Shown here piece after piece: positions 6,015 to 61,667 of a DNA stretch of 64,000 nucleotides. Under the pieces are notes generated by a model that had not been told where the DNA came from, did no database searches, and saw only the letters and a list, made by a program, of their open reading frames with translations. Position numbers and translations under genes: made by a program. Origin of the DNA: Planctomycetota bacterium (GTDB lineage Bacteria; Planctomycetota; UBA8108; UBA1146); assembly GCA_013911165.1 (NCBI GenBank), contig JACETR010000003.1:170-64169 (forward strand). The letters are read 5' to 3'. Within the stretch, counting starts at the first letter, position 1. Each line of letters starts with the position of its first letter.

Positions 6015-6169
6015 TCTTTTCTCACCTTTGCAGGCAGGGCCCCTGATTAAGGGATCGAAATGCCTGAGGCATCACTTAAAATAGGAATCACTATTTTGAA
6101 TGATCGATCAGCAGGCTGTGGGTGATCACCCGCAGTTTTCAGGGGACGTCGGAAGCAGAGGCAGTTTCA

Positions 6170-9652: not shown

Positions 9653-9704
9653 TAGTGGATCGGGAGAACTATAAAACTCTTCAATTTAATGGGGGAGAGA
9701 CCCA

Positions 9705-43500: not shown

Positions 43501-46500
43501 CAGTTCCCGGTCGGTGAAACGACGGTGAGCCTGACCGTGACCGATATTCACGGCAACAGCACTGACGACAGCTTCACTGTGACCGTCACCGACAACGAGA
43601 ACCCTGTGATCACCGACAGCCCGGACAGCATCACCCTGACCAATGATCTTGGTGAGTGCGGTGCGGTGGTGACCTGGGCCGAGCCGAATGCCGCTGACAA
43701 CTGTGAAGTCAGCACCTTCGAGCCGAGCCTGCCCAGCGGCAGCTTCTTCGAAGTCGGTGTGAATGTGGTGACCTACACGGCCATCGACATTTACGGTAAC
43801 TTCAGCACCGAGAAGTTCTTTGTGACCGTGACTGACAATGAGAACCCTGCGTTCGAGAACATGTCAGCGGATATCACCCTGAACTCCGAGCCGGGGCTTT
43901 GCTCCGCAGTCGTCACCTGGGTGGATCCCCAGCCTGTCGACAACTGTGAAATCTTCGACAGCTCCTCTTCGCACCTTCCGGGAGACACTTTCCTGGTAGG
44001 CACGACCGAGGTCAGCTACTCGACTACCGATATCCACGGCAACTCCTTCAGCACCAGCTTCAATGTGACGGTGCTGGACGAAGAAGCCCCAATGATCATG
44101 GACATGCCTGCCAGCCGTCAGCTGCAGACTGATCCGGGTCAGTGCGGTGCTGTGGCCCTGTGGACCGAGCCCTCCTCGACTGACAACTGCCAGGTGGACA
44201 CTTTCGTCTCCAGTCACAACTCCGGAGATTTCTTCCCGGTGGGTGACACGACGGTGACCTACACTTCCACCGACATTCACGGCAATGAGTCGAGCGAGAC
44301 TTTCGTGATCACCGTCGACGACAACGAGAACCCGCAGATCAGTGGTCTTTCCCTCGATCTGACCCTCGACAACGACGCCGGTGAGTGTGCGGCTGTGGCC
44401 ACATGGACTGAGCCTTCTGCCTCAGACAACTGTGACATCCAGTCCTTCACCAGCTCCCACGCCAGCGGTGACTCGTTCCCTGTGGGATCCACGACCGTTT
44501 CCTACACGGCTCTGGATATCCATGGCAACGAAACCACCGAGTCCTTCAGCGTGACGGTCCTCGACACCGAGAACCCGGTGATTCTGGGACTCAGCGGTGA
44601 TCTGGCCTCGACCAACGATCCTGGTGCCTGTGGTGCCCTGATCACCTGGACGGAGCCGACTGCCGAGGACAACTGTTCCATTCAGTCCTTGACCAGCACC
44701 CACAACAGTGGCGACTTCTTCGAGGTCGGAACCACGACGGTGACCTACACCGCTCTGGATATCCACGGCAATGAGTTGAGTGGCTCCTTCAACGTCACCA
44801 TCAGTGACGACGAGAACCCGGAGATCCTCGGACTCAGTGGTGACATTGCTTCAACCAATGACGCCGGTGCCTGTGGTGCCGTGATCGGCTGGACCGAGCC
44901 GACTGCCATCGACAACTGTGACGTTCAGTCTCTGACCAGTAGTCACAACAGTGGCGACTTCTTCGAAGTCGGAACCACGACCGTGACCTACACCGCCATG
45001 GATATCCACGGCAACATGATCAGCGGCTCCTTCAATGTTTCGGTGAGCGACGACGAGAACCCGGAGATTCTGGGTCTCAGCCTCGATATCACCGTCTCGA
45101 ATGATCTGGGAGAGTGTGGTGCCAATGTCAGCTGGACCGAGCCGACCGCTCAGGACAACTGCGAAATCCAGTCCTTCACCCAGACGCATGTCAGCGGAAC
45201 CTACTTCGAAGTGGGAACCGAAACCGTGACCTTCACGGCCGTCGATATCCACGGCAACACGACCAGTGGATCCTTCGACGTGACCGTCAATGACGAGGAA
45301 AGCCCGATCATCAGCGGCTTGACCGGTGATCTCACCGTCAACAATGACGCCGGTGATTGCGCTGCAATCGTGACCTGGAACGAGCCGACGATCACCGACA
45401 ACTGTGATTTCGTCAATGTCACCCGCAGTCACGACAGCGGTTCTTCCTTCCCCGTGGGTACCACTGAGGTTCTCTACGAAGCGGAAGACATTTACGGTAA
45501 CCAGGTGACCGAGACCTTCTCGGTGACCGTGATCGACGCAGAGAACCCGGAGATCCTGGGCCTCAGCGGTGACATTGCCTCGACCAACGATGCCGGTGCC
45601 TGTGGTGCCGTGATCGGCTGGACGGAGCCGACCGCCGAGGACAACTGCGGAATCCAATCCTTGACCAGCAGTCACAACAGTGGTGACCTCTTCGAGGTTG
45701 GAACCACGACCGTGACCTACACGGCTCTCGATATCCACGGCAATGAGCTCAGCGGCTCCTTCAACGTCACCATCAGTGACGACGAAAACCCGGTCATTCT
45801 GGGTCTCAGCGGCAACATCGCTGCGTCGAACGACGCCGGTGACTGTGGTGCCGTGATCACCTGGACCGAGCCGAGTGCTATCGACAACTGTGACGTTCAG
45901 TCTCTGACCAGCAGTCACAACAGTGGCGACTTCTTCGAGGTCGGAACCACAACCGTGACCTACACTGCACAGGATATCCACGGCAACGAGATCAGCGGTT
46001 CCTTCGACGTCACGGTCAGTGACGACGAGAACCCCGTCATTCTGGGTCTCAGCGGCAACATCGCTGCGTCGAACGACGCCGGTGACTGTGGTGCCGTGAT
46101 CACCTGGACCGAGCCGAGTGCCATCGACAACTGTGACGTTCAGTCTCTGACCAGCAGTCACAACAGTGGCGACTTCTTCGAGGTCGGAACCACAACGGTG
46201 ACCTACACCTCCATGGACATTCACGGCAACATGATCAGCGGCTCCTTCGACGTCAGCATCAGCGACGACGAAGCACCGGTCTTGGCCAACGTTCCCATGG
46301 ATATGGTCCTGACCAATGATCCGGGTGATTGTGGTGCGATTGCAACTTGGGCGAACCCCTCCTCCAGTGACAACTGCGGAGTCTCCCTGAGTCAGCAGTC
46401 TCACGACTCCGGAGATTTCTTCCCGGTGGGAACCACGATCGTCTCCTTCGATATCGAGGATGAGGCCGGCAACTCAGCGAGTGCCAGCTTCCAGATCACC

Positions 46501-48011: not shown

Positions 48012-48110
48012 ACGAATCCCCTACTCTTTCACGGCGAGTTGTGCCGTGAACAACACAACCTGGTTGACGCAAGGATCCCCCGTCTCTGCGTCATACCTAA
48101 TGGAGGTACG

Positions 48111-51100
48111 ATGTTCCCCCGTATCGCCCTTTACACAGGTGCACTCTTCTGTGTGCTGATCTTTGCTCAGGCTTCTGCCTCGGCTCAATGTCAGCCCACT
48201 GTGGACTGCAATCAAAACGGTGTCGCAGACCAATGTGATATTGATCTGGGTACAAGTGATGATTGCAATGGCAACCTGATCCCCGATGAGTGTGATCTCG
48301 AGCTCGCAACGAGTGAGGATTGCAATCTGGATGGAATCCCTGACGAGTGCAGCCCAGGCACCGCCGATCTGGTGGGCATCGGACTCGCATTTGGAGGAGG
48401 TTTCGGATCTGCCGTCGATTCCACCGCTGATTTTGCAGTGGTCGGTGCTCCCGATGATGATTTGTTGGGCACCAACACCGGATCTGCAAACATCTTCAAG
48501 CGTACCGGAACCCGCTGGGCCGAAGAGATGAAGATCTTCGGTGTGGCGGCCACATTGGAAGATCGTTTTGGAGCTGCTGTCGCCATCGAAGGTGACCTTG
48601 CAGCCATCGGCGCCCCCGGAAAACTCCAGGGTCGCGGAGCGGTCTTTCTTTATCGCAGGGTTGGCAATGGCTGGTGGAACTACGAGGGAACACTCACCGC
48701 CTTTGATGCCCCCCTTGGCGCCGCATTCGGCAGCGCCATCGCCATCGAAAATGAAACCATCTTTGTCGGAGCTCCAGGCACACTCAATGGCCTCGGTTCC
48801 GGCTCTGTTTACGTCTTTACCCATGAAAGTGGCATGTGGTTACAGGATCAGAAGTTGGAATCTGATCAGTTGACCGATGGGGACATGCTGGGTTGCTCGA
48901 TTGCTGTTCACGGAGGAACCGTGGCCATCGGTGCACCGGGTCACGAATCCGGTGGTGTAACCAACTCAGGAAGCGTTCTGATCTTTGAGGAATCCGCAGG
49001 TATCTACACTGAGAGTTTGATGCTGAGTGCAGAGACTCCCAGCCCGTTTGCGACCTTTGGATACTCTTTGGATGTCAATCATGACCATCTCTTGGTGGGA
49101 GCACCCGGTGAGAATGTTGACAGTGGTGCAGCCTATCTGCACAACCGCCTCGCCAGCATGTGGATTAACCAGCAAAAAATTGAACCCGAAGATATTGATG
49201 AGAGTGGTCTCTTTGGAGCCGACGTGGGGCTGGATGTCAAAACAGCCGTGATCAGCGCTCCTGCCGCAGGATCTGATCAGGGTCAGGTGGTGATCTACAG
49301 AAAGTCGGGTCTCGACTGGATCAAGGAAGCCCCCCTGAGTCCTGTCTCCGATCGAATCGCGGGAGATTTCTACGGAAGTTCGCTCAGTTGCCAACTTCCT
49401 TTCCTGATCGTCGGAAGTTCAGGAGACAGCAGCGGTAAGAGTATTTGGATCTCGGTATACAACGACTGCAATGAGAACCTTGAGGATGACATCTGTGATG
49501 TGACTCAGGGAATTGAAGCAGACTGCAACATGAACCTGATTCCTGACGCCTGTGAGATTGCCGACGGCACCAAACAGGATTGTGATGGAAATGGTGTCCC
49601 TGACGAATGCCAAATCTCTTCGGGTGAGTTGCTCGATTGCAACATGAACGGTGTTCCCGACGGTTGTGATGTCACCAGCGGATTCTCCCTGGATTGTAAT
49701 CAGGACCAGATTCCTGACGAATGCCAGGTGGATGCAGATCCCCTGTTGCCGACGATTTCCAACATGCCGAACCCTTTCAACGTCAGCACCGATCTGAATG
49801 AATGCGGAGCGGTTGTGACTTGGGACGAGCCGATTGCCACAGACAACTGCGGCATCGCTTCCCTTGAGACGACCCATCCTTCCGGGAGCTTCTTTTCCAC
49901 CGGCTTGACCATCGTGACCTACACCGCCACCGATGTCAGTGGAAACACTCGTGCAGCGATGTTCACTGTGGTGGTCACCGATGACGAGCTTCCGACCCTT
50001 ACAGGATTCCAGAATGTCGTTTCTGTGGATTCTTCAGAAGGAATCTGTGAGTTGGCCGTGAACTGGCCCGCTCCAAGCCCCGTGGACAACTGTGGAATCT
50101 TCTCAATGACTTCCACGCATCAGCCCGGTGATATCTTCCCCGTCGGTACCACGACGGTGACCTACACCCTGACTGATACCAATGGCAACGTTTCTGCCAT
50201 CAATCTGGATGTTGTCGTTGTCGATACGGTAGCTCCGGAAATCAGCGGAATGCCCGCTGACATCGATCTTCTGACCGAACCAGGAATCTGCACTCGTTTG
50301 GTGGAATGGGTCGAACCGGAAGCCAGCGATGATTGCAATGTCGCGTCTTTCACTTCAAACATTGCCAGCGGCACTGTCTTTGAATTGGGGACGACCACTG
50401 TTACCTACACCGTCATCGACGGTTGGGGGAACGTGGTTTCTTCCAGCTTCAATGTCACCATCAGGGATGAAGAACTTCCTGTTTTTGCGGCAGCACCTGC
50501 CGACATCGTTTCAGGAAATGACCCCGGTGAGTGCCACGCCCAAATTTCATGGGCTCCTGCCACCGTGCAGGACAACTGCGGAGTCAATTCTGTCGTCAGC
50601 AGCCATCAGCCTGGAGATATCTTCCCGCTGGGTGATACAGAAGTGACGATTACCGCAACGGATGACAACGGTAATGTGAACCTTCATCAGTTCACAGTTT
50701 CCATCCTTGATACAGAAGCGCCGTTGATCAGCAATATTCCGGAAGACTTTGTTCTCAACAATGACCCGGCCCAGTGCTCTGCTGTGGTCAACTGGCAGCT
50801 CCCGGGAATCTCCGACAACTGTGGAATCAGTGTCTTCTCCGGTACTGCCAACTCCGGAGATGCCTTCCCCATCGGAACGACAGTGGTGGAGTACACCCTG
50901 GTCGACAACTCCGGAAATCAGACCAACGCCAACTTCAGCATCACGGTGACCGATACAGAAATGCCGATCCTGCTCGGATTGCCGCAGGATATTTCGGTCT
51001 TCAACGACCCCGGACAGTGTGGTGCCAACGTGACATGGGAAGTTCCGACTCCATGGGACAACTGTGAATTGGTCGACTTTGACGGCTCTCACGAGCCGGG

Positions 51101-54100
51101 CGCTTTCTTCCCGAAAGGCACCACAGAGGTGACCTATCTGGTCATGGATGGAATGGGTCAGGTTACAACCGGGTCTTTCGATGTCTCCGTCGATGATGAC
51201 GAAGCTCCCCAGATCAGTGGTATGCCTGCAGACAGAACCATCTCTGCAGACGCAGGCCTTTGCTCTGCCATTCACAGCTGGACGGTTCCGGTACCTTCTG
51301 ACAACTGCGAAGTGGTTTCCTTTATCGCAACCCATGAGCCGGGAGAAGCTTTCCCGGTTGGAGTGACACAGGTTTCCTACACGGTGATCGACAGTATGGG
51401 AATGACCACGACTGACCAGTTCAGCATCACGGTGGTAGACAACGAAAATCCTCAGATCATCCGCATTCCTTCTGACATGACAGTCGTTGTCGAAGAGGGG
51501 GATTGCACCATTCCGGTCAGTTGGATCGCCCCCGATTCACAGGATAACTGCGCCATCGACACTTTCAGTCTCTCGCATGCATCCGGCAGTGAGTTCCCGG
51601 TCGGATTGACCACGGTGGAGATCAACACCGCTGATATTCATGGCAACACTTCTGCAGCCAGTTTCACTGTCACCGTTCTGGATCAGGAAACTCCTGTCAT
51701 CCTCAATCTTCCCGCAGACATTTCCCTCACTTCGGATGGAGATGCATGTGGAACGACGGTGACCTGGATTGAACCCCAGGGAGCTGACAACTGTTCTGTC
51801 AGTGACCTTTCTTCAGACCAGGTGAATGGCGAGTTCTACCCGGTGGGAATCACCGTGGTGACCTACAGCATTCTGGATGCTTCCGGGAACTCGGATGAGG
51901 CCAGTTTCGCCATCGAGATTACTGACACGACTGCTCCGGCATTTGTTGAGATTCCGCAGGGAATCCAGATGTCTACAGATCCGGGTCAGTGTGGAGCCAT
52001 CGTTTCCTGGAATCCGGTGACCGCAGATGACAACTGTGAAGTAGATACGATTTCCGGATCCCATTCTTCAGGCATGTTCTTCAATACTGGCATCACCACG
52101 GTCGATTACCTGGTGACGGATATTCATGGAAACCAGACCTCCCACAGCTTTGACGTGGAGATTCTGGATCAGGAGCAGCCGCAGATTATTGGAATCGACG
52201 AGAATATCGTGATGACCAATGATGGCGGACAGTGTGGAGCAAATGTCAGCTGGGTCCAGCCTGAAGCAACCGACAACTGCCTCGTCGACAGTTTGACCCA
52301 CAGCATTCCTTCCGGAGCCTTCTTCTCCGTGGGAACGACACAGGTCTCCTACCTTGCTGTCGACAACAGTGGCAATGAAACCGTCAAATCATTCAGTGTT
52401 ACCGTTGAAGATAACGAGAAGCCCGCCTTCGTGGCGATTCCCGAGCTGGTCAGCGGAACCACCACGGAAGGAACCTGCGACGGCATCGTGAACTGGGACG
52501 AAGTGACCGGAAGTGACAATTGCCTTGTCGATTCCATCACCCTGACCCACGCCTCCGGGGATGTCTTCCCCCTTGGTGATACGACGGTGACGGCAACGAT
52601 CACCGACATTCATGGAAACATGCACACCTCTGACTTCACCGTCAGGATCGAAGATGACGAGCTTCCCCAGTTGCTGGGTACGCCCACAGACCAGTTCAAG
52701 ATCAATGATCCCGGAGAGTGTGGCGCCATCGTGGATTGGATTATCCCGGGTACGTCTGACAACTGTCAGGTTCAGATCCTCGAGGGTACTCACGTTCCAG
52801 GCAGCTTCTTTGAGCGGGGAACCACGGTTGTCAGTTACACGGTGACCGATGCTTCCGGAAATTCCTACATGGAGAGCTTCGAGGTCAACATTGTCGATCT
52901 TGAGACCCCTGAGATTCTGGGAACCCCGGCAGATATCGTGGCCGTTGCGGACACCGGTTCCTGCGGAACGAACATCTCCTGGATTGAGCCGACCTCTACC
53001 GACAACTGCTCGGTTCAGGCGTTGATCTCCAGTCACAACCCCGGTGATTTCTTCATCACTGGAACGACAGTGGTTTCCTACACTTCACAGGATCCCACTG
53101 GAAACATCACCACCACACAATTCAATGTCACCATTCTGGATGAAGAGTTCCCGACCTTTGGAACTTTCCCTGAATCGGTCACTGTCAGCAACGACGCAGA
53201 TCAGTGTGGTGCGAGTGTCAGCTGGATCGAGCCCCAGATGCTCGACAACTGCAGCATTGGCAGCAGTGGATCTGATCATCAGTCCGGAGATTTCTTCCCG
53301 ATCGGCACGACAGTGGTGACCTACGAAATCGCTGACCCCTCGGGGAATACCATCAGCGACAGCTTCAGTATCACCGTAGAGGACACACAGGCACCGGACT
53401 TCCTGACCTTTGTCAGTAGCACGGTACTTGAGAATGATCCCGGAGAATGTGGAGCGGTTCACACCTGGGGTGTGCCGGAAGTGTTTGAAAACTGTCCGGA
53501 ACTTGAAGTGGTTTCTTCGCACAACCCCGGAGACTTCTTCAACACGGGTCTGACGGTGGTCAGTTACACCGCCACGGACGGTGCCGGTCTTGTGAGCCAG
53601 TTGATGTTTACGGTGATTGTTCTGGATACCGAGAACCCCCAGATCGCGGGCATGCCGGCTGATATCACCCAGGCCACGGATCTGGATTCCTGTGGCGCCA
53701 TCGTCGATTGGGCTGCTCCCCAGGCTTCTGACAACTGTGATGTTCTGAGTTTCACTTCTGACCATGCTCCGGGAGACTTCTTCCCCAAGGGCACGACGAC
53801 CGTGACCTACAGCGTTCTTGATACGGCTGGTTTGCTCGTGACGGAGAGCTTCAATGTCACCATCCTTGATCAGCAGCTGCCCTCCATTACTGCCATGCCG
53901 CAGAGCGTGACCATCAACAGTCAAAACGGACTGTGCGGATCCATGCATGCATGGGATCTTCCTCAGTCTTCTGACAACTGTCCGGATCATGTCTTCTCTG
54001 GTTCTCACCAGCCTGGAGACTTCTTTGAGGTCGGATCGACCACTGTTGCCTACACGGCCATCGACAGTAGCGGAAATGTATCTTCTGCAGACTTTGTCGT

Positions 54101-57100
54101 GACGGTTGTGGACAATGAAAACCCTGAGATTGTTGGTGCGCCGCAGGACATGGTGATCATTGCAGACGAAGGTGTCTGCAGCATGCTTGTCATGTGGGAT
54201 GCCCCGACATTCGAAGACAACTGTGGAATTGACACCTTTGCCATTTCCCGTGAATCCGGCAGTGAGTTCCTTCTCGGAGACACACTGGTAGAAATTACCA
54301 CGACTGATATCCACGGAAACTCTTCGGCGGCCAGCTTCACTGTGACGATTCTCGACCAGGAGCTTCCGCAAGTCGTCGATCTTCCGGCGGACATGAGTGT
54401 CGAAAATGATCTCGACAGCTGTGGGGCCGTCGTTTCATGGATTGAACCGACCTCCAGCGACAACTGTGAAGTGACCTCTTTGACTGGAAATCAGATCAAT
54501 GGCGGGACCTACCCGATTGGAATCACTGTGGTGGAGTACACCGTGGTGGATTCTTCCGGAAATACGAATCTTGCCAGTTTCCAGATTGAAGTGTTGGACA
54601 CCCAGCTGCCGGAACTCTTTGCCATGCCGGACTCTGTTCTGCAGGTCAATGACGCCGGTGCATGTGGAGCAGTGATCGGCTGGGATCTTCCCCAGACTTC
54701 AGATAACTGCCCTGATCAGATTCTGACGAGCACCCATAACCCCGGAGACTTCTTCAGTGTTGGTGAGACTACGGTTTCCTACACAGTGACGGACGCTTCC
54801 GGAAACACCCGCAGCCTGAGTTTCGATATCCAGATTGTCGATCTTGAGATTCCGGTGGTGGTGGATGGTCCTCAGGACATTCTGGTTGAGGCCGAACAGG
54901 GACTGTGCGGTAGCACCATTTCCTGGATCGAGCCGACTGCGATCGACAACTGTGAAGTTTTCGATCTCAAGCCGAGTAACTACCCGGGTGAGTTCTTCGC
55001 TGTGGGTACAACGCTTGTTTCCTACACCGCCATCGATACCACCGGCAACATCGCCGTGCATGTGTTCAATGTCACGGTTGAGGATACTCAGGCTCCGATT
55101 ATCGACGGTTTGACCGGAGACATTTCCGTCAATACCGATTTCAATCAGTGTGACGCCATCGTCACATGGACTGAGCCCACCATTAGCGACAACTGCACGG
55201 TGGTCTCTGCCAATGTCGATATCTCCTCTGGAACCGCATTCCCGATTGGTACGACGACGGTCACATACACTGTGATTGATTCCGCCGGTCTCGAGACAGT
55301 CCAGAGCTTCGACGTCACGGTTTCTGACAACCAGATTCCGACATTCGAAAACATTCCCGGAAATGTGGTTCTGTCCGTGGAGCCCGGCACCTGCCAGAGC
55401 CTCCATCACTGGATTGAGCCGACGATTACAGATAACTGTCCCGGATTGACCGTGACTGCGAGCCATCAGCCAGGAGATTCGTTCCCCGTAGGCCTGACCA
55501 TCGTCAGCTACCAGGCAGCGGATGCCCATGGCCAGAGCAGGCAGATCATGTTCACCGTGGTCGTTCAGGATGACGAAAACCCAGTCCTTGCCGGTATTCC
55601 GGAAGATGTCATTCTCGAGAATGACCTGGATCAGTGTGGTGCCGTTCACCAATGGGTAGAACCGACCGCTTCGGACAACTGCGCCACGGTCGGATTCAAC
55701 ACGACTCACCCGAGCGGTTCCTTCTTTGATCTGGGAACGACGGAAGTCGTCTACTCCGTCTCTGATCCGAGTGGAAACATGGTTTCTGCCAGTTTCAATG
55801 TGACGGTGGTGGACCTTCAGCTTCCTGAGTTCGTGACGGTTCCGGAGACCGTTTCCCTGAATACCGATCCGGGTGTTTGTGGTGCGGCCCATTACTGGGA
55901 TCTGCCCAACGTCTATGACAACTGTGAAGAGATCAATCTCGCCTCCAGCCATCAGCCGGGGCACGTATTCCCGATCGGAACCACAGTGGTGACCTACACG
56001 GCGCAGGACCCGACCGGCAATGTTGTGAGTACTGATTTCTCAGTGACTGTCAGCGACTTTGAGGATCCCGACTTCGAGGGAATCCCGGGTACGATCACAG
56101 TGAACACCGAGCCGGGTCTCTGTGATGCAGCGGTCGATTGGGTTGCCCCTATTGCTGTGGATAACTGTGAAGTGCAGTCCCATTCCAGCAGCCATCAGCC
56201 GGGTGACCGCTTCGAGTTGGGTCAAACTTCTGTGATCCTTTCGGCCACAGACATCTACGGTAACGACTTTACGACCTCCTTCCTGGTGATCGTGGAAGAC
56301 CATGAACTTCCGGTGATCAGTGGAATGCCCGAATCGGTGACGATTCCCAGCATTCAGGGTTTCTGTGGTGCGTCTCACCTCTGGGATTCCCCAACCGCTT
56401 CTGATAACTGCGACACTTTGGCACCGACTGCTGATTACCTCAGTGGACACTTCTTCCCTGTTGGATCGACGACTGTGACCTACTCAGTGACCGATGAAAG
56501 CGGCAACTACACCGAGGATTCGTTCATCGTCACAGTTGAAGATGTTGAAGCACCGGTGTTTACCGCCATTAGCACAGATTACACCGTCTCTGCTGACGCT
56601 GATCAGTGTGGAACGGCAGTCATCTGGCCCGACGCAGAGGCTTCCGACAACTGCGGTGTCGACAGCATTACCTACGACAGAACAAACGGTCTGTTCCTTG
56701 AACTGGGCGACCACCCGGTCAATGTCACAGTGACAGATATTCACGGACTTCAGACCACACAACAGTTCGTCATTACCGTTGTCGATGACACGGCACCGGT
56801 GATCCACGATCTCCCCGCTGACATTCAGCTGACAGCCACCGAGGGTCAGTGTGGAGCAGTGGCTACATGGATTGAGCCGACCTCCACCGACAACTGCCCG
56901 GGCAGATTGCTGGCCAACAACATTCCGTCAGGAAGCTTCTTCCTTGTCGGTCAAACGACTGTCTCCTACGTGTCTACCGATGCCTCAGGAAATACGACGA
57001 CAGAGTCCTTCACGGTGACGGTCGAAGATGATCAGTTGCCGACCCTTGCGGGTATTCCCGACGATATCGTTGTCAGCAATGATCAGGGTATCTGTGGAGC

Positions 57101-60100
57101 CCAGGTTTCATGGACCCCGCCCGCTGCTCTGGATAACTGCGGGATTGAAACCCACGTGTCGAGTTACAACCCGGGTGACCTGTTCAATCTGGGAACGACG
57201 ACCGTGGAAATCGTCGCCACTGATTACAGTGGAAACTCCGTGACGGGCACCTTCCTGGTTACCGTCGAAGATACGGAGGCACCGGGGATTGCCAATCTTC
57301 CGGAGAACATGACCGTTGAGTCTGAGGTCGGCATGTGTGGTGCCAATGTCAGCTGGGTGGAGCCCTTCACCGTTGACAACTGTGCCACCGGAACACTGGT
57401 TTCAGACATCGCCAATGGAGCGTACCTCAATGTGGGTCTCCACCAGGTGACTTACACAGCGACCGATCTTCATGGCAACGTCACGACAGATTCGTTCTCG
57501 ATTGAAGTGGTCGACGCTGAAACCCCAATCATCCTGAGCGCACCTTCCTCTGTTGAAATCCAGGTGCAGGATGGGCTGTGCGGTTCGATTTACAGTTGGT
57601 TTGAGATTCAGGCAACCGACAACTGTGCCATCGACAGCATCACCAATAGTCATGAGAGTGGGTCTTTCTTCCCGAAAGGAACCACGCTTGTTCAGCAGAC
57701 CGTCAGTGACGCTGCAGGTAACAGTGTTTCTCATGAGTTTGAAGTGACCGTGGTCGACCACGAGGCTCCGCAGTTCAGCTCTTCGATTTCAGGGCTCAGC
57801 CTTCAGAGCGTCAGTGGTGCATGTGGAACCAGTGCTTCATGGACTGAGCCGGAGATTTCCGATAACTGTGAAATCGCCAGTTTGACCAAATCCCATGAGC
57901 CTGGAGACTTCTTCGAAGTGGGTGAAACTCTGGTGACCTACACTCTCGTCGATGGAAGTGGCAATGAGACCAGCATCGATTTCCTCGTGTCGGTTGAAGA
58001 CGTTGAGGCTCCGGTGATCTCTGGCCTTCAAAGTTCAGTTTCCGTATCCACGGATCCGGGATTCTGCGGAGCAACCGTTTACTGGGATGCTCCTGTGATC
58101 ACCGACAACTGCCTTGTTGACAACATTCTGTCTACCCATCAGCCGGGCGACTTCTTCCCGGTTGGCAACACGGTTGTGACCTACAGCGTTTCTGACAACT
58201 CTGAGTTGGTTACCACCGTTGAGTTCCTGATCACTGTTACCGACAATGAGACGCCTCAGATCAACAACATTCCTTCGATCGACCTGATCGAAACGGAGCC
58301 GGGTCTTTGCGGTGCAGTTGTTGCATGGAGTTCTCCGAGTGTGACCGACAATTGCCAAGTGACGAGCTTGACCTCAGACATCCAGAATGGAACCTTCCTG
58401 GAAATCGGTCAGCACACCATCGTCTTCACCGCCCTCGACATTCACGGTAATGAATCGACGGCCGGATTTACTGTGACGATCATTGACGGAGAGGCACCGA
58501 CGATCACCGATCTTCCCACTGTGGTCGAGGGTGTGAGGACCAGTGACAGCTGCATGGGCAGCGTTAACTGGGCAGAGCCCCTGATCAGTGATAACTGCGG
58601 AGAGTTCGCATTGGAAACGAGTCACCAGAGTGGAGATTCCTTCAACCTTGGAATCACCACGGTGACTTACACTGCCACCGATCTGCAGGGCAATACCCAA
58701 TCAGCCAGCTTCGAAGTACACATCGCGGATGTCCATGGCCCCGAGATCAGTGGCTTGCCGCTGGAAATCAGCAGCGATACGGATCCGGATTCCTGCCTGG
58801 CCATCGTGGACTGGGCTGAGGCGTCTGTAATGGATCATTGTGGCGATTTCAATCTTGAGAAAACCCACGAGCCGGGTACTGCTTTCCCCGTGGGAACCAC
58901 GGAAGTGGTTTACACCGCGACCGATCTGGCTGGAAACGTCACACAGGTCAGCTTCCCTGTGACCGTAACGGACGTTCAGGCTCCCCTGATCACGCTGATT
59001 CCCGAGGATCAGACGATTCTGGCCAATGAGGATGAGTGCACCATGATCGCCAACTGGCCAGCACCGACTGCTACCGACAACTGTGGAGTGGCGTCCATCG
59101 TCACCAGCCACAACTCTGGTGACCTTTACCCGGTCGGTGTAAATACTGTTGAGATTCTGGTGACGGACGTTCATGGAAACACCACGACCGCCTCTTTCCA
59201 GATTAACGTGATCGACAGTATTGATCCGATTCTGACCGGAGTTCCCGCAGATATCACGACGGTATCTGATCCGACAATCTGTGGTGCGGAAATCACTTGG
59301 GTCGAGCCCAACGTGATTGAGAACTGTGCTCTGCTGAAGTTGGAATCGGACTATGCACCTGGAACGATTTTCCCTGTGGGTCTGACGGTCGTGAATTACG
59401 TGGCTGTTGACCTCAGCGGCAACAGCACCTCCGCTTCTTTCACTGTCACGGTGATTGATGATGAGGCTCCGACTATCGAGATTCCTGTCCCGGTGATCGT
59501 GGATGCTCCTGAGGGCTCTTGCGAAGTCTTCGTCGAGGTTCCGCTGTTGGAGGTCTATGACCGCTGTGGTGTTTCCCAAATCACCAACAGCTTCAACGGT
59601 ACAGCTGATGCTTCGGGGATTTACCCCCGTGGTGAAACCCTGATCCTCTGGTCGGTCAGTGACGAGAGTGGAAACATTTCGACGATCACTGGAGTGGTCA
59701 GTGTTCAGGTCAGTGGACCGGACTGTAATGCCAATGGTGTCCCCGACGTGTGCGATATCGCAGAAGACATTTCCACAGACTGTAACCAGGATGGCATTCC
59801 TGACGAGTGCCAGGCTGACTGCGACGACGATGGCATTCTCGACGTCTGTGAAATCACTCAGGGACTCGTCCTCGACTGTGATTTGGATGGAGTGCCCGAC
59901 GATTGTCAGATCGCTTCTGGAATCGCAGCGGACTGTGACGGTGACGGACTGATCGACTCTTGCGAGATTCTGACCGGATCTGGTCTCGACTGTGACAACA
60001 GCGGGGTTCTGGATTCGTGTGAGATTGCGCAGGGTACTGTTGCGGATTGCAACAACAACGGTCAGCCGGACCTTTGCGACATTGCTCTGGGAGTCGAAAG

Positions 60101-61667
60101 TGACTGCAACAACGATGGAATTGCTGACGCATGTCAGATCGCCAGCGGATCTGAAGTTGACTGTAACGCTGACGGCGTGATTGACACTTGTGAGTTGGCC
60201 AACGGTTCTGCTTCCGACTGTAATGGCAACGGAACGCTGGACGTTTGTGACCTCGCCACCGGAAATGCAGATGATTGCAACCAGAACTCGATTCCGGATT
60301 CCTGTGACATCGCTTCCGGTATCGCATTCGACTGCAATGCCAATGGTCAGTTGGATATCTGTGATATCGAGCAGGGCCTGGCAGACGACTGTGACACCAA
60401 CAACGTTCCTGATGCCTGCGACGTGGCTTCCGGTGCAACACCGGACTGTAACAGCAATGGCATTCCGGATTCCTGTGACCTTTCGAGCGGTGCCTCTGAA
60501 GACTGCAATGGAACGGGAATCCCGGACAGTTGTGAAGTCGCCAGTGGTGCGACACCGGACTGTAATGGCAATGGTGTTCCGGACAGCTGTGATTTGGCCA
60601 ACGGAACAGCAGATTGTGACAACAACAATGTGCCCGACAGTTGCCAGATCGCTTCTGGAGAATCACCGGATTGTAATGGCAATGGTGTACCGGACGCCTG
60701 TGATATCAGCTCCGGTGCGGCGCTTGATTGCAACACCAATGGAGTTCCTGATTCCTGTGAGGTGGCTAACGGACAGGCTGCAGACTGCAACAGCAATGGA
60801 ATCCCCGACAGCTGTGATATCGCCAGCGGCGTTGAATCTGACTGCAACTCTTCTGGTGTGCCCGACAGTTGTGAGGTGACCAGCGGTACTGCGCTGGATT
60901 GCAACGACAACGGTATTCCGGACAGCTGCGATATTGCCTCAGGCAACTGGCAGGACTGTGATGCCGACGGCAACCTGGACAGTTGCGAAATTCTGGTGGG
61001 TACTGAGCAAGACTGCAACGGTACCGGAATCCCTGACGCATGTGAGATTCTCTCCGGTGCTGCCGACGATTGTGACGGCAACCAGATTCCGGACAGTTGT
61101 GATCTCGTGACAGGCGTTCTTTCTGATTGCGATCAGAATGGCACCCCGGATACCTGCGATATCCTCGCTGGGGGTGTTGAGGATTGCGACGGAAACCAGG
61201 TTCCCGACAGCTGCGATTTGCTCACTGGTACTCTGGAAGACTGCAACCAGAATGCGGTTCCGGACTCTTGCGAAATCGCTGCCGGTGATACAGAGGACTG
61301 TGATGGCAACGGAATCCCCGACTCCTGCGACATTGCTGCAGGCCTTCTGTTGGACGCCAACCTCGACGGAATCCCGGACCAGTGTCAGCTGAACTTCCTC
61401 AGGGGAGACGGCAATGACGACGGGATCGTCAACATCGCTGACGGTATCTTCCTGCTTCAAAGCCTCTTTGCTGACGGAGCGGATTCCACCTGTAATGATG
61501 CGGCGGATGCCAATGACGACAGTTCAATCGACGTATCCGACGTGATCAGCATTCTTGGATACCAATTCAATGGAACCAATCCTCCTCCTGCTCCTTACCC
61601 GAACTGCGGAGTTGATCCTGCAGGCGGAGTGAGCCTCGGGTGTGAGGCCTACACCAGTTGTCCCTGA
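48111..61667 (+). CDS. Giant secreted adhesin-like protein 3 (~4,518 aa): 3 + 5 + 30 Cys-bracketed Ca-loops, FG-GAP region, 41 HYR modules and a dockerin-like C-terminus
   Basis: ORF 48039..61667, with the start at ATG 48111 (GGAGG 48103-48107; MFPRIALYTGALFCVLIFAQASASAQ signal). FG-GAP-like units are present (FGSAVDSTADFAVVGAPDDD, FGAAVAIEGDLAAIGAPG). HYR cores were hand-counted from CGAVVTWDEPIATDNCGI to CEVFVEVPLLEVYDRCGV. Confidence 0.95.
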   Translation: MFPRIALYTGALFCVLIFAQASASAQCQPTVDCNQNGVADQCDIDLGTSDDCNGNLIPDECDLELATSEDCNLDGIPDECSPGTADLVGIGLAFGGGFGSAVDSTADFAVVGAPDDDLLGTNTGSANIFKRTGTRWAEEMKIFGVAATLEDRFGAAVAIEGDLAAIGAPGKLQGRGAVFLYRRVGNGWWNYEGTLTAFDAPLGAAFGSAIAIENETIFVGAPGTLNGLGSGSVYVFTHESGMWLQDQKLESDQLTDGDMLGCSIAVHGGTVAIGAPGHESGGVTNSGSVLIFEESAGIYTESLMLSAETPSPFATFGYSLDVNHDHLLVGAPGENVDSGAAYLHNRLASMWINQQKIEPEDIDESGLFGADVGLDVKTAVISAPAAGSDQGQVVIYRKSGLDWIKEAPLSPVSDRIAGDFYGSSLSCQLPFLIVGSSGDSSGKSIWISVYNDCNENLEDDICDVTQGIEADCNMNLIPDACEIADGTKQDCDGNGVPDECQISSGELLDCNMNGVPDGCDVTSGFSLDCNQDQIPDECQVDADPLLPTISNMPNPFNVSTDLNECGAVVTWDEPIATDNCGIASLETTHPSGSFFSTGLTIVTYTATDVSGNTRAAMFTVVVTDDELPTLTGFQNVVSVDSSEGICELAVNWPAPSPVDNCGIFSMTSTHQPGDIFPVGTTTVTYTLTDTNGNVSAINLDVVVVDTVAPEISGMPADIDLLTEPGICTRLVEWVEPEASDDCNVASFTSNIASGTVFELGTTTVTYTVIDGWGNVVSSSFNVTIRDEELPVFAAAPADIVSGNDPGECHAQISWAPATVQDNCGVNSVVSSHQPGDIFPLGDTEVTITATDDNGNVNLHQFTVSILDTEAPLISNIPEDFVLNNDPAQCSAVVNWQLPGISDNCGISVFSGTANSGDAFPIGTTVVEYTLVDNSGNQTNANFSITVTDTEMPILLGLPQDISVFNDPGQCGANVTWEVPTPWDNCELVDFDGSHEPGAFFPKGTTEVTYLVMDGMGQVTTGSFDVSVDDDEAPQISGMPADRTISADAGLCSAIHSWTVPVPSDNCEVVSFIATHEPGEAFPVGVTQVSYTVIDSMGMTTTDQFSITVVDNENPQIIRIPSDMTVVVEEGDCTIPVSWIAPDSQDNCAIDTFSLSHASGSEFPVGLTTVEINTADIHGNTSAASFTVTVLDQETPVILNLPADISLTSDGDACGTTVTWIEPQGADNCSVSDLSSDQVNGEFYPVGITVVTYSILDASGNSDEASFAIEITDTTAPAFVEIPQGIQMSTDPGQCGAIVSWNPVTADDNCEVDTISGSHSSGMFFNTGITTVDYLVTDIHGNQTSHSFDVEILDQEQPQIIGIDENIVMTNDGGQCGANVSWVQPEATDNCLVDSLTHSIPSGAFFSVGTTQVSYLAVDNSGNETVKSFSVTVEDNEKPAFVAIPELVSGTTTEGTCDGIVNWDEVTGSDNCLVDSITLTHASGDVFPLGDTTVTATITDIHGNMHTSDFTVRIEDDELPQLLGTPTDQFKINDPGECGAIVDWIIPGTSDNCQVQILEGTHVPGSFFERGTTVVSYTVTDASGNSYMESFEVNIVDLETPEILGTPADIVAVADTGSCGTNISWIEPTSTDNCSVQALISSHNPGDFFITGTTVVSYTSQDPTGNITTTQFNVTILDEEFPTFGTFPESVTVSNDADQCGASVSWIEPQMLDNCSIGSSGSDHQSGDFFPIGTTVVTYEIADPSGNTISDSFSITVEDTQAPDFLTFVSSTVLENDPGECGAVHTWGVPEVFENCPELEVVSSHNPGDFFNTGLTVVSYTATDGAGLVSQLMFTVIVLDTENPQIAGMPADITQATDLDSCGAIVDWAAPQASDNCDVLSFTSDHAPGDFFPKGTTTVTYSVLDTAGLLVTESFNVTILDQQLPSITAMPQSVTINSQNGLCGSMHAWDLPQSSDNCPDHVFSGSHQPGDFFEVGSTTVAYTAIDSSGNVSSADFVVTVVDNENPEIVGAPQDMVIIADEGVCSMLVMWDAPTFEDNCGIDTFAISRESGSEFLLGDTLVEITTTDIHGNSSAASFTVTILDQELPQVVDLPADMSVENDLDSCGAVVSWIEPTSSDNCEVTSLTGNQINGGTYPIGITVVEYTVVDSSGNTNLASFQIEVLDTQLPELFAMPDSVLQVNDAGACGAVIGWDLPQTSDNCPDQILTSTHNPGDFFSVGETTVSYTVTDASGNTRSLSFDIQIVDLEIPVVVDGPQDILVEAEQGLCGSTISWIEPTAIDNCEVFDLKPSNYPGEFFAVGTTLVSYTAIDTTGNIAVHVFNVTVEDTQAPIIDGLTGDISVNTDFNQCDAIVTWTEPTISDNCTVVSANVDISSGTAFPIGTTTVTYTVIDSAGLETVQSFDVTVSDNQIPTFENIPGNVVLSVEPGTCQSLHHWIEPTITDNCPGLTVTASHQPGDSFPVGLTIVSYQAADAHGQSRQIMFTVVVQDDENPVLAGIPEDVILENDLDQCGAVHQWVEPTASDNCATVGFNTTHPSGSFFDLGTTEVVYSVSDPSGNMVSASFNVTVVDLQLPEFVTVPETVSLNTDPGVCGAAHYWDLPNVYDNCEEINLASSHQPGHVFPIGTTVVTYTAQDPTGNVVSTDFSVTVSDFEDPDFEGIPGTITVNTEPGLCDAAVDWVAPIAVDNCEVQSHSSSHQPGDRFELGQTSVILSATDIYGNDFTTSFLVIVEDHELPVISGMPESVTIPSIQGFCGASHLWDSPTASDNCDTLAPTADYLSGHFFPVGSTTVTYSVTDESGNYTEDSFIVTVEDVEAPVFTAISTDYTVSADADQCGTAVIWPDAEASDNCGVDSITYDRTNGLFLELGDHPVNVTVTDIHGLQTTQQFVITVVDDTAPVIHDLPADIQLTATEGQCGAVATWIEPTSTDNCPGRLLANNIPSGSFFLVGQTTVSYVSTDASGNTTTESFTVTVEDDQLPTLAGIPDDIVVSNDQGICGAQVSWTPPAALDNCGIETHVSSYNPGDLFNLGTTTVEIVATDYSGNSVTGTFLVTVEDTEAPGIANLPENMTVESEVGMCGANVSWVEPFTVDNCATGTLVSDIANGAYLNVGLHQVTYTATDLHGNVTTDSFSIEVVDAETPIILSAPSSVEIQVQDGLCGSIYSWFEIQATDNCAIDSITNSHESGSFFPKGTTLVQQTVSDAAGNSVSHEFEVTVVDHEAPQFSSSISGLSLQSVSGACGTSASWTEPEISDNCEIASLTKSHEPGDFFEVGETLVTYTLVDGSGNETSIDFLVSVEDVEAPVISGLQSSVSVSTDPGFCGATVYWDAPVITDNCLVDNILSTHQPGDFFPVGNTVVTYSVSDNSELVTTVEFLITVTDNETPQINNIPSIDLIETEPGLCGAVVAWSSPSVTDNCQVTSLTSDIQNGTFLEIGQHTIVFTALDIHGNESTAGFTVTIIDGEAPTITDLPTVVEGVRTSDSCMGSVNWAEPLISDNCGEFALETSHQSGDSFNLGITTVTYTATDLQGNTQSASFEVHIADVHGPEISGLPLEISSDTDPDSCLAIVDWAEASVMDHCGDFNLEKTHEPGTAFPVGTTEVVYTATDLAGNVTQVSFPVTVTDVQAPLITLIPEDQTILANEDECTMIANWPAPTATDNCGVASIVTSHNSGDLYPVGVNTVEILVTDVHGNTTTASFQINVIDSIDPILTGVPADITTVSDPTICGAEITWVEPNVIENCALLKLESDYAPGTIFPVGLTVVNYVAVDLSGNSTSASFTVTVIDDEAPTIEIPVPVIVDAPEGSCEVFVEVPLLEVYDRCGVSQITNSFNGTADASGIYPRGETLILWSVSDESGNISTITGVVSVQVSGPDCNANGVPDVCDIAEDISTDCNQDGIPDECQADCDDDGILDVCEITQGLVLDCDLDGVPDDCQIASGIAADCDGDGLIDSCEILTGSGLDCDNSGVLDSCEIAQGTVADCNNNGQPDLCDIALGVESDCNNDGIADACQIASGSEVDCNADGVIDTCELANGSASDCNGNGTLDVCDLATGNADDCNQNSIPDSCDIASGIAFDCNANGQLDICDIEQGLADDCDTNNVPDACDVASGATPDCNSNGIPDSCDLSSGASEDCNGTGIPDSCEVASGATPDCNGNGVPDSCDLANGTADCDNNNVPDSCQIASGESPDCNGNGVPDACDISSGAALDCNTNGVPDSCEVANGQAADCNSNGIPDSCDIASGVESDCNSSGVPDSCEVTSGTALDCNDNGIPDSCDIASGNWQDCDADGNLDSCEILVGTEQDCNGTGIPDACEILSGAADDCDGNQIPDSCDLVTGVLSDCDQNGTPDTCDILAGGVEDCDGNQVPDSCDLLTGTLEDCNQNAVPDSCEIAAGDTEDCDGNGIPDSCDIAAGLLLDANLDGIPDQCQLNFLRGDGNDDGIVNIADGIFLLQSLFADGADSTCNDAADANDDSSIDVSDVISILGYQFNGTNPPPAPYPNCGVDPAGGVSLGCEAYTSCP
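49731..59714 (+). repeat. Array of 41 HYR modules (40 canonical plus 1 divergent terminal module)
   Basis: Hand count of the C..W..P...DNC cores. The array length divided by 243 nt gives about 41. Confidence 0.85.
59721..61388 (+). repeat. 30 tandem copies of the 19-aa (57-nt) Cys-bracketed EF-hand-like loop
   Basis: 556 aa running from DCNANGVPDVCDIAEDIST to DANLDGIPDQCQ. Twenty-seven units are exactly 19 aa. There are two Cys per unit, and I could find no Lys or Arg in the whole stretch. Confidence 0.9.
61395..61664 (+). other. Dockerin-like module with Cys-rich tail (giant 3)
   Basis: FLRGDGNDDGIVNIADGIFLLQSLF...STCNDAADANDDSSIDVSDVISILGYQF...NCGVDPAGGVSLGCEAYTSCP-stop. Confidence 0.75.

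What the first reader, a model, noticed from the sequence alone, without database searches (positions are those of the whole stretch)
61395..61667. Cys-stapled dockerin variant ending in an invariant ...C-x10/11-C-x5-C-P-stop tail, shared by four proteins
Four unrelated-length proteins terminate with the same module and stop right after Cys-Pro:
- EEP protein: ...LFSGFGDLPAPGPQNCGADPTSDALDCSTFSGCP*
- Giant 1: ...LFSGGPAPAAPFDSCGVDMTADDLGCESYGVCP*
- Giant 2: ...LFMASTPPGAPFGNCGIDPDGESIGCESFSTCP*
- Giant 3: ...QFNGTNPPPAPYPNCGVDPAGGVSLGCEAYTSCP*

Upstream of the tail are two EF-hand-like loops, each followed by a helix, as in dockerins. An extra conserved Cys lies between them (P[TS]C[LQN]D[SA].D.NDD).

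The first loop begins F-x-R-G-D-x-N-x-[DS]-G in these four proteins, which is a conserved RGD tripeptide. The cohesin-like protein has FLRSD instead. It also lacks the CP tail and ends ...PFPSADLDPTPGDGLGCDGDADDL*. That suggests two dockerin sub-types, comparable to type I/type II specificity in cellulosomes.

The tail does not look like the sorting signals I know (PEP-CTERM, LPXTG, T9SS CTD), because it has no hydrophobic helix plus basic tail. It could be a disulfide-locked recognition or sorting element specific to this lineage.
Basis: seen in the sequence. Interest (0 to 1): 0.8.

Follow-up and report, generated by a model that had tools for sequence, protein, structure and literature searches.

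The report
Cysteine-braced extended dockerin of Planctomycetota
Four secreted proteins in this marine planctomycete window end in a real, widespread but undescribed version of the dockerin protein-docking domain, lengthened by a 30-residue tail that appears to be pinned by disulfide bonds; it is a self-contained domain, not a terminal sorting signal.

Summary
Four signal-peptide proteins (an EEP nuclease/phosphatase and three HYR-repeat giants) end in the same ~93-aa module, and a fifth protein carries a variant of it.

The module is a dockerin. It has two intact Ca-binding loop-helix repeats. The AF2 model has pLDDT 93, and 28 of 29 Foldseek PDB matches are dockerins. It also carries a conserved 30-aa tail, P-A-P-[FY]-P-x-C-G-x-D-P-T-x-D-x-L-x-C-x5-C, that has no Pfam or NCBIfam model and no solved relative.

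Cysteines come in co-occurring pairs across 462 homologous modules:
- C36/C85 is the core pair.
- C74/last-Cys is optional (222/17/15/208).
- C9/C40 is optional.

This supports "Cys-stapled".

The "invariant CP-stop sorting tail" reading fails. Complete modules also occur N-terminally, internally and in tandem, often alternating with cohesins. Only 40-53% of C-terminal copies end in C-P.

The fifth protein is a double-cohesin adaptor. The most likely function is therefore Ca-dependent cohesin docking of varied secreted cargo, as in the published "planctosome" idea.

Verdict: a new variant of a known kind, of moderate interest. Disulfides, Ca binding and cohesin binding are inferred, not shown.

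The parts
61386..61664 (+). Giant 3 extended dockerin module (93 aa, 4-Cys class). Ca loop 1 lies at 61407-61442, Ca loop 2 at 61506-61541 and the Cys tail at 61569-61664. The stop codon is 61665-61667.
   Evidence: 142 bits. AF2 pLDDT 93.1. Foldseek PDB matches are dockerins.
47686..47961 (+). Giant 2 extended dockerin module (92 aa, 4-Cys class)
   Evidence: Dockerin_1 28.6 bits, above the gathering score; 150 bits
16353..16631 (+). Giant 1 extended dockerin module (93 aa, 4-Cys class)
   Evidence: 143 bits
8333..8611 (+). EEP protein extended dockerin module (93 aa, 6-Cys class: also carries C9 and C40)
   Evidence: 137 bits. 95% identical to the copy in MAG SW42618_bin_2.
21762..22040 (+). 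Variant dockerin of the adaptor protein. It has FLRSD and Cys at 9, 36, 40 and 85, lacks the C74/last-Cys pair, and has a conserved acidic end GC[DN]GDADD[LI].
   Evidence: Dockerin_1 28.3 bits; 88 bits
20874..21761 (+). Two cohesin-fold modules of the 415-aa adaptor protein (aa 27-176 and 178-322). These are candidate receptors for the dockerins.
   Evidence: Pfam Cohesin 30.2 bits. AF2 pLDDT 85.5. Foldseek: cohesin dyad 3l8q E 1e-11, single cohesins TMt 0.75-0.82. The two modules are homologous to each other.
6122..8614 (+). Cargo gene 1: signal peptide, P-domain, endonuclease/exonuclease/phosphatase domain, dockerin. The likely start is Met17, at 6170.
9705..16634 (+). Cargo gene 2 (Giant 1): signal peptide, 22 HYR repeats, dockerin
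37498..47964 (+). Cargo gene 3 (Giant 2): signal peptide, FG-GAP, 31 HYR repeats, Cys-bracketed repeats, dockerin. The likely start is the Met at 37537.
48039..61667 (+). Cargo gene 4 (Giant 3): signal peptide, FG-GAP, 40 HYR repeats, about 21 Cys-bracketed repeats, dockerin. The likely start is the Met at 48111.

Best explanation
The ~90-aa module is a self-contained, extended dockerin domain.

**Anatomy**
- Its first ~62 residues are a normal dockerin: two Ca-binding loop-helix repeats with all ligand positions kept.
- A conserved, proline-rich 30-residue tail follows: P-A-P-[FY]-P-x-C-G-x-D-P-T-x-D-x-L-x-C-x5-C.
- The tail folds back onto the N-terminal F-x-R strand and the inter-loop linker.
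- It is most likely pinned by a core disulfide between the inter-loop Cys36 and tail Cys85/86.
- Two optional extra pairs occur: C74 with the last Cys, and C9 with C40.

**Proposed function.** The proteins are exported by Sec signal peptides and oxidised outside the cytoplasm. The module then docks very different secreted cargo (nucleases, haem peroxidases, lectin-like domains, giant HYR adhesins) onto cohesin modules of adaptor or scaffold proteins, such as the double-cohesin protein encoded in the same window. This would build cell-surface assemblies of the kind proposed as the 'planctosome'.

**Shown:** homology, predicted fold, co-occurring Cys pairs, positional freedom, cargo diversity, and a cohesin-fold partner in the window.

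**Inferred:** actual disulfides and their exact pairing, Ca binding, cohesin binding and its specificity.
For: **Dockerin identity**
- Dockerin_1 hits in all five modules, two of them above the gathering score.
- Ca-ligand positions conserved across 462 modules: D8 98%, N10 89%, D12 87%, D19 100%; D41 98%, N43 77%, D45 83%, D52 100%.
- AF2 pLDDT 93.1, pTM 0.85, with helices where dockerins have them. 28 of 29 Foldseek PDB matches are dockerins, TMt 0.6-0.79.

**The tail is part of the domain**
- Solved dockerins match profile positions 3-64 only.
- The tail is as conserved as the Ca loops: P70 98%, G75 95%, D77 94%.
- DSSP bridges fall at F4, C36, G75 and C86. The F4 and residue-75 equivalents are also bridged in the second model.
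- Tailless tandem dockerins lack both C36 and F-x-R.
- Of 403 tail hits, 396 follow a full core. The other 7 follow a half-core or are truncated.

**Cys pairs**
- C74/last-Cys 222/17/15/208, p 1e-89.
- C9/C40 36/9/6/411, p 7e-39.
- Both associations survive reduction to below 45% identity.

**Not terminal**
- Full modules occur N-terminally, internally and in tandem.
- 17 of 122 modules in genome loci are not C-terminal.

**Docking**
- A cohesin-fold adaptor lies in the window.
- Doc-Coh-Doc is a common architecture.
- Cargo is diverse and extracytoplasmic.
- A similar cohesin/dockerin + P-domain + HYR system has been proposed in Planctomycetes (PMC6461901).
Against: - No experiment exists. 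No coordinates were returned, so Cys-Cys distances could not be measured.
- From my memory of dockerin structures, the two Ca loops lie at opposite ends of the domain. If so, a direct C9-C40 bond needs checking.
- Three of the four modules score below Pfam's Dockerin_1 gathering threshold.
- Cohesin binding is inferred only from co-occurrence and fold. Many non-cellulosomal dockerin-like modules have no demonstrated cohesin partner.
- The homologue sets are biased. The top representative hits favour multi-copy proteins, and the genome loci favour close relatives of the query.
Confidence: 0.7

Rival explanations
1. The module, or its Cys tail, is a C-terminal sorting or secretion signal. A lineage-specific export or anchoring machinery would recognise it, in the way the T9SS C-terminal domain is recognised, and might remove or modify it.
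For: - It is mostly C-terminal in genome loci: 103 of 122.
- The protein usually ends 0-2 residues after the last Cys, with C-P-stop in 40-53% of cases.
- It is attached to very diverse secreted cargo.
Against: - Complete 4-Cys modules occur after signal peptides, internally and as tandem arrays of up to seven copies.
- The fold is a helical dockerin, not a beta-sandwich CTD.
- There is no hydrophobic helix or basic tail.
- No sortase-like or exosortase-like gene lies in the window. The intervening genes are haem biosynthesis, PEPCK and similar.
- In the sequences held, the tail is never seen without a dockerin core.
Confidence: 0.1
2. It is a dockerin-like, Ca-stabilised, disulfide-locked end-cap that does not bind cohesins. 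It might instead attach proteins to a cell-envelope glycan, the S-layer or another receptor, or simply stabilise the termini of long extracellular proteins.
For: - Dockerin-like modules without known cohesin partners are widespread outside cellulosomes. This is established background (Peer et al., cited in PMC6461901).
- The window has five modules but only two cohesins.
- The extra tail could create a new binding surface.
Against: - Cohesin-fold modules are found in the same window and often in the same polypeptides as the module (Doc-Coh-Doc).
- 27 ORFs with cohesin-like hits lie within the 80 six-kb loci.
Confidence: 0.15
3. It is an ordinary dockerin whose cysteines are incidental and have no structural role.
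For: The core matches Dockerin_1 and solved dockerins.
Against: - C36 is 96% conserved and C85 87%.
- Cys gain and loss occurs in pairs, with very strong association that survives redundancy reduction.
- C36 is absent exactly where the tail is absent.
- The tail is conserved in tens of MAG lineages.
Confidence: 0.03

Closest known systems
Type I dockerin modules of cellulosomes (Pfam PF00404; e.g. PDB 1OHZ, 2MTE, 5M2O)
   Same: - Two duplicated Ca-binding loop-helix segments with the same ligand pattern.
- The same predicted three-helix fold.
- Mostly C-terminal but positionally free.
- Attached to diverse secreted cargo.
- Cohesin-fold partners encoded nearby.
   Different: - About 30 extra conserved residues follow helix 3, with no counterpart in any solved dockerin.
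- A conserved F-x-R precedes the first loop.
- One to three co-occurring Cys pairs are present.
- The host is an aerobic marine planctomycete.
- The cargo is adhesins, nucleases and oxidoreductases rather than cellulases.
The 'planctosome' hypothesis: cohesin/dockerin proteins of freshwater Nemodlikiaceae (Andrei et al. 2019, PMC6461901)
   Same: - Planctomycete secreted proteins combine dockerin, cohesin, proprotein-convertase P-domains and HYR repeats.
- There is an adaptor with both a cohesin and a dockerin.
- No link to cellulose degradation.
   Different: - In the passages I read, that work describes the modules at Pfam-domain level. A full-text search found no mention of a Cys-braced tail or of Cys classes.
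- It concerns a different, freshwater lineage.
- It is itself an untested model.
T9SS C-terminal domains and other C-terminal sorting tags (PEP-CTERM, LPXTG)
   Same: - A ~90-aa module, usually at the extreme C-terminus of many unrelated secreted proteins in one lineage.
   Different: - A helical Ca-binding fold rather than a beta-sandwich or a TM helix.
- It also occurs N-terminally, internally and in tandem.
- No associated sorting enzyme was seen.
Fungal (Neocallimastigomycota) dockerins, which are Cys-rich (from memory, not tested here)
   Same: - Docking modules stabilised by disulfides, used outside the cell.
   Different: - An unrelated fold and sequence family. This is an analogy only.

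Membership tests
Dockerin (PF00404 / dockerin fold) | Two tandem ~22-residue Ca-binding loop-helix repeats with acidic/Asn ligands at loop positions 1, 3, 5 and 12 | tested here: met
   D8-x-N10-x-D12...D19 and D41-x-N43-x-D45...D52 are invariant in the four window modules. They are 77-100% conserved in 462 homologous modules.
Dockerin (PF00404 / dockerin fold) | Match to the Pfam Dockerin_1 HMM at or above the gathering score (22.9 bits) | tested here: inconclusive
   Giant 2 (28.6 bits) and the adaptor (28.3 bits) pass. EEP (17.0), Giant 1 (20.1) and Giant 3 (14.2) fall below. Multi-copy homologues score up to 96.6 bits.
Dockerin (PF00404 / dockerin fold) | Three-helix dockerin fold | tested here: met
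   AF2 pLDDT 93.1. 28 of 29 Foldseek PDB matches are dockerins, TMt 0.6-0.79, rmsd 1.5-3.9 A. This is a predicted structure only.
Dockerin (PF00404 / dockerin fold) | Ca-dependent binding to a cohesin module | not testable with these tools
   A double-cohesin protein is encoded in the window, and Doc-Coh-Doc homologues are common. No binding data or complex prediction was possible.
Dockerin (PF00404 / dockerin fold) | Compact ~60-70-aa module with no further conserved elements | tested here: not met
   A conserved 30-aa Cys-containing extension lies beyond profile position 64, and no solved dockerin matches it. It is therefore a variant, not a canonical member.
C-terminal sorting signals (PEP-CTERM, LPXTG, T9SS CTD) | Strictly C-terminal position | tested here: not met
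   Among the representative hits, 32 4-Cys modules are N-terminal and 16 internal. 17 of 122 modules in genome loci are not C-terminal. Tandem arrays exist.
C-terminal sorting signals (PEP-CTERM, LPXTG, T9SS CTD) | Hydrophobic helix plus basic tail (PEP-CTERM, LPXTG) or beta-sandwich CTD (T9SS) | tested here: not met
   The sequence ends ...C-x5-C-P with no hydrophobic stretch. The predicted fold is helical plus coil.
C-terminal sorting signals (PEP-CTERM, LPXTG, T9SS CTD) | A dedicated processing or sorting enzyme co-distributed with the tag | not tested
   Only the window was inspected. The genes between the carriers are haem biosynthesis, PEPCK and others. A genome-wide co-occurrence analysis was not possible.
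'Planctosome' cohesin-dockerin system (PMC6461901) | Secreted planctomycete proteins combining dockerin or cohesin with P-domain and HYR modules, including a cohesin+dockerin adaptor | tested here: met
   EEP protein: P_proprotein + dockerin. Giants: HYR + dockerin. 415-aa protein: 2 cohesins + dockerin.
'Planctosome' cohesin-dockerin system (PMC6461901) | Membership of the Nemodlikiaceae lineage and an LTD-anchored scaffold | not tested
   The closest record is a marine 'Planctomycetia bacterium' MAG, 90.5% DNA identity. No LTD protein lies in the window. LTD was seen once among 88 carriers elsewhere.

The most novel reading that the evidence does not exclude
Planctomycetota may have evolved a distinct, disulfide-locked class of dockerin suited to oxidising environments.

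- Its 30-residue lasso could add a third structural element, possibly a further Ca site in the G-x-D-P-T-x-D-x-L-x-C segment.
- Its Cys-pair classes (2, 4 or 6 Cys, plus the adaptor-specific acidic ending) could encode a hierarchy: cargo binds adaptor, and adaptor binds anchor.
- That hierarchy would organise giant adhesins and enzymes on the cell surface.
- Doc-Coh-Doc proteins could self-polymerise into extracellular chains.
Probability: 0.25. Interest if true: 0.65.

Novelty: new variant of a known kind. Interest (0 to 1): 0.45.

Why it matters
Dockerin-cohesin pairs are the classic high-affinity building blocks of extracellular protein machines, and they are widely used in protein engineering. 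Nearly all structural knowledge comes from anaerobic Firmicutes.

A large, conserved, cysteine-braced and extended dockerin class in aerobic marine Planctomycetota would matter in four ways:
- It gives concrete sequence rules for annotating thousands of 'hypothetical' C-termini in MAGs.
- It suggests how giant HYR adhesins and secreted enzymes are held on planctomycete surfaces.
- It makes the so-far speculative 'planctosome' directly testable, with a defined cargo set and a defined double-cohesin adaptor from a single locus.
- It may provide redox-stabilised docking modules for synthetic biology.

Tried and rejected
- **NCBIfam scan of the five tails.** There is no model for the module. My recollection of a 'GC-type dockerin' NCBIfam family could not be confirmed in the library or in the literature.
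- **Pfam at E<=1.** Nothing covers the tail.
- **Tail-only database search.** That pool is biased, because it was gathered with the full module.
- **Third homologue search, using the adaptor's dockerin.** It returned only 8 fragments, so I could not establish whether that subtype is exclusive to adaptors.
- **Cys-Cys distances.** Structure prediction returns no coordinates, and /data holds no model files. Only DSSP bridges could be used.
- **Terminator scan downstream of Giant 3.** It found nothing, so I make no claim about a terminator.
- **RGD as an integrin-type adhesion motif.** Rejected: G-D is the canonical start of the dockerin Ca loop, and the tripeptide sits inside the folded domain.
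- **Pfam Excalibur or EF-hand families for the tail.** No hit. The resemblance to DxDxDGxxCE is from memory only.

Full report
**1. The observation**

The window (55.6% G+C) has five large ORFs on the + strand whose products start with signal-peptide-like sequences:

| ORF | Size | Pfam content |
|---|---|---|
| 6122-8614 | 830 aa | P-domain + endonuclease/exonuclease/phosphatase |
| 9705-16634 | 2309 aa | 22 HYR repeats |
| 37498-47964 | 3488 aa | FG-GAP + 31 HYR repeats |
| 48039-61667 | 4542 aa | FG-GAP + 40 HYR repeats |
| 20796-22043 | 415 aa | Cohesin + Dockerin_1 |

Coordinates 61395-61667 run from F-L-R-G-D to the stop codon of the largest gene.

The four modules are 43-47% identical over 93 residues, with 24 invariant columns. 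A six-frame HMM scan finds exactly five copies in 64 kb and nothing else below E about 1.

**2. What the module is**

*The core is a dockerin.*
- Pfam gives Dockerin_1 for the first ~55 residues of all five modules. Two pass the gathering score and three fall just below it.
- NCBIfam has no model for the module.
- A profile search of PDB sequences returns dockerins, and they align only to profile positions 3-64.
- An AlphaFold2 model of the last 99 residues of Giant 3, built on a 60-sequence alignment, is confident (pLDDT 93.1, pTM 0.85). It has helices at residues 23-34, 43-46 and 56-68, followed by a well-ordered non-helical tail.
- 28 of 29 Foldseek PDB matches are dockerins (TMt 0.6-0.79). 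None extends over the tail.

*The tail is part of the same domain.* In 462 homologous modules:
- The Ca-ligand positions of both loops are 77-100% conserved.
- The tail is equally conserved: P70 98%, G75 95%, D77 94%, P78/T79 about 78%, D81 82%.

So this is a dockerin core plus a conserved 30-residue extension: P-A-P-[FY]-P-x-C-G-x-D-P-T-x-D-x-L-x-C-x5-C.

*The conserved 'RGD'.* G-D is the standard start of a dockerin Ca loop. The lineage-specific part is the preceding F-x-R (F 90%, R 98%).

*Contacts suggested by DSSP.* DSSP marks isolated bridges at F4, C36, G75 and C86 of the model. In the second model only the F4 and residue-75 equivalents are bridged. This suggests that F4 pairs with the C-G segment and C36 with C86.

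**3. The cysteines**

The table gives co-occurrence counts over 462 modules, in the order both present / first only / second only / neither.

| Pair | Counts | Fisher p |
|---|---|---|
| C74 with a Cys 3-10 residues after C85 | 222 / 17 / 15 / 208 | 1e-89 |
| C9 with C40 | 36 / 9 / 6 / 411 | 7e-39 |

- C36 is present in 96% of modules and C85 in 87%.
- The main classes are 2-Cys (177), 4-Cys (164) and 6-Cys (30).
- The associations persist when modules are thinned to below 45% identity: n=61, C74/last-Cys 23/6/3/29, p 2e-8.
- Tailless tandem dockerins that the same profile picks up lack both C36 and F-x-R.

This is the pattern expected for a core C36-C85 disulfide with two optional additional disulfides. 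It rules out 'incidental cysteines'.

In the window:
- The EEP protein is 6-Cys.
- The three giants are 4-Cys.
- The 415-aa protein has C9, C36, C40 and C85.

*Caveats.*
- No coordinates were returned, so no distances could be measured.
- From my memory of dockerin structures, the two Ca loops lie at opposite ends of the domain. A direct C9-C40 bond therefore needs checking.

**4. Terminal sorting signal or domain?**

The 92-position profile was scored against 1.84 billion representative proteins:

| E-value cut-off | Hits |
|---|---|
| <= 1e-3 | 39,611 |
| <= 1e-10 | 22,909 |
| <= 1e-30 | 559 |

These counts are upper bounds for the extended form, because tailless and multi-copy dockerins also score.

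*Position in the protein.*
- The top hits carry 2-13 copies.
- Complete modules, including the last Cys, occur directly after signal peptides, internally and head-to-tail.
- Among these representatives, 4-Cys modules are N-terminal 32 times, internal 16 times and C-terminal 46 times.
- In a less biased set of 80 loci from GTDB species genomes, 103 of 122 modules are C-terminal and 17 are not.

*The C-P ending.* Residues after the last Cys of C-terminal copies:

| Set | P | none | E | other |
|---|---|---|---|---|
| | 63 | 17 | 12 | various |
| (103 copies) | 55 | 8 | 3 | 37 |

C-P-stop is therefore common, at about 40-53%, but not invariant.

*Other points.*
- A tail-only HMM finds 403 tails in the sequences held. 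Of these, 396 follow a full core, and the other 7 follow a half-core or are truncated. The pool is biased.
- The genes between the carriers in the window are haem biosynthesis, PEPCK and similar. No sortase-like enzyme is present.

Together these results disfavour a terminal sorting tag. They fit a positionally free domain that, like classical dockerins, is usually placed at the C-terminus.

**5. Likely function**

*The partner in the window.*
- The 415-aa protein is predicted (pLDDT 85.5) to be a signal peptide, two beta-sandwiches and a dockerin.
- Foldseek matches a type II cohesin dyad (3l8q, E 1e-11). Many single cohesins also match at TMt 0.75-0.82.
- The two sandwiches are homologous to each other.
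- Its orthologues (45-98% identity) keep a distinctive dockerin ending, L-D-P-T-x-G-D-G-L-G-C-[DN]-G-D-A-D-D-[LI]. Paralogues have the 4-Cys ending.

*Architectures elsewhere.* Doc-Coh-Doc is the commonest mixed architecture, 27 of 150. Doc-Coh-Doc-Coh-Doc also occurs.

*Cargo.* The 88 regions upstream of C-terminal modules carry varied extracytoplasmic domains:
- FG-GAP
- di-haem oxidoreductase
- laminin-G
- beta-helix
- TIG
- P-domain
- Ig
- Kelch/galactose-oxidase
- 5'-nucleotidase
- endonuclease I
- EEP
- LTD

This is the signature of a docking tag.

*Best explanation.* The module most likely mediates Ca-dependent docking of secreted cargo onto cohesin-bearing adaptors, with the tail and disulfides bracing the small domain in an oxidising extracellular environment. 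Binding, Ca dependence and any type I/II-like specificity of the Cys classes remain inferred.

**6. Distribution and what is known**

- Named sources are almost all uncultured Planctomycetota MAGs, with several loci per genome.
- The closest record is a marine 'Planctomycetia bacterium' MAG, 90.5% identical and syntenic over window 6154-11596.
- Andrei et al. 2019 proposed a cohesin/dockerin 'planctosome' with P-domains and HYR repeats in freshwater Planctomycetes (PMC6461901).
- A 2024 survey noted that Dockerin_1 in huge proteins comes mostly from Planctomycetota (PMC11573180).
- Full-text searches found nothing about a Cys-braced dockerin extension.

The carrier system is therefore known at Pfam level. 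The extended, disulfide-paired dockerin is an undescribed variant.

**7. Verdict**

- **Observation:** confirmed.
- **Interpretation:** partly supported. 'Cys-stapled dockerin variant' holds; 'invariant terminal C-P sorting element' does not.
- **Novelty:** new variant of a known kind.
- **Interest:** moderate, 0.45. The family is large, clean and structurally distinctive, and it gives a testable cargo/adaptor set from one locus. It remains an elaboration of a well-known module, and its function is unproven.

Noticed in passing
window 59724-61359 (Giant 3 aa ~3896-4440); also Giant 2 aa 3336-3390 and the N-terminal regions of both: There are arrays of ~19-aa Cys-bracketed repeats, D-C-[DN]-x-N-G-x-P-D-x-C-[DE]-[IL]-x-x-G. 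Giant 3 has about 21 copies and Giant 2 about 10. They lie directly upstream of the dockerin and look like Ca-binding, thrombospondin-type-3-like units. Pfam gave no family for them.
   Followed up: partly
window 20796-22043: This 415-aa protein (signal peptide, two cohesins, dockerin) forms a tight orthologue family in marine Planctomycetota MAGs. Its acidic C-terminal ending GC[DN]GDADD[LI] is almost invariant, even at 45% overall identity. The conservation of that ending is unexplained.
   Followed up: partly
P0121, P0123, P0124, P0127, P0131, P0137 (homologues, not in the window): Some proteins consist of up to seven full extended dockerins in tandem. Others alternate them regularly with cohesin-like ~180-aa modules (Doc-Coh-Doc-Coh...). 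Such proteins could in principle self-polymerise.
   Followed up: partly
P0143 and P0168 (homologues): Other Cys layouts exist. P0143 repeats lack C36 but have a Cys near position 68 plus C85. P0168 has half-modules (one Ca loop, a helix and the tail) repeated.
   Followed up: no
tail segment, e.g. window 61605-61643 (G-V-D-P-A-G-G-V-S-L-G-C-E): The conserved G-x-D-P-T-x-D-x-L-x-C(-E) stretch resembles a half EF-loop, or the DxDxDGxxCE Ca motif of Excalibur domains. The resemblance is from memory only. It might be a third Ca site. Pfam gives no Excalibur hit.
   Followed up: no
L016/L063 (labelled Bacillota MAG 7), L047 (labelled Parcubacteria group bacterium, 539-kb contig), L061 (labelled Proteobacteria MAG): A few records with non-planctomycete labels carry typical modules. 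Their contig sizes and gene content suggest mislabelled or mis-binned Planctomycetota rather than true spread to other phyla.
   Followed up: no
window 31524-37041 (+) and 22133-23512 (-): There is a haem biosynthesis cluster: glutamyl-tRNA reductase, porphobilinogen deaminase, uroporphyrinogen-III synthase, uroporphyrinogen decarboxylase and an amine-oxidase-type oxidase. A hemL-like gene lies on the other strand (identified by eye from its translation, no family search). PEPCK is at 29189-30748. All of this sits between the dockerin-bearing genes.
   Followed up: partly
window 16755-20156 (+): This 1133-aa secreted protein has DUF7133, GSDH-like, HEAT-repeat and C-terminal cytochrome c (CxxCH) domains. 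From memory this architecture is common in Planctomycetes. It carries no dockerin.
   Followed up: no
window 6154-11596 vs L001 (JAAXJX010000050.1): The window is 90.5% DNA-identical and syntenic with a contig of 'Planctomycetia bacterium isolate SW42618_bin_2'. The source is therefore a related marine, uncultured planctomycete.
   Followed up: yes
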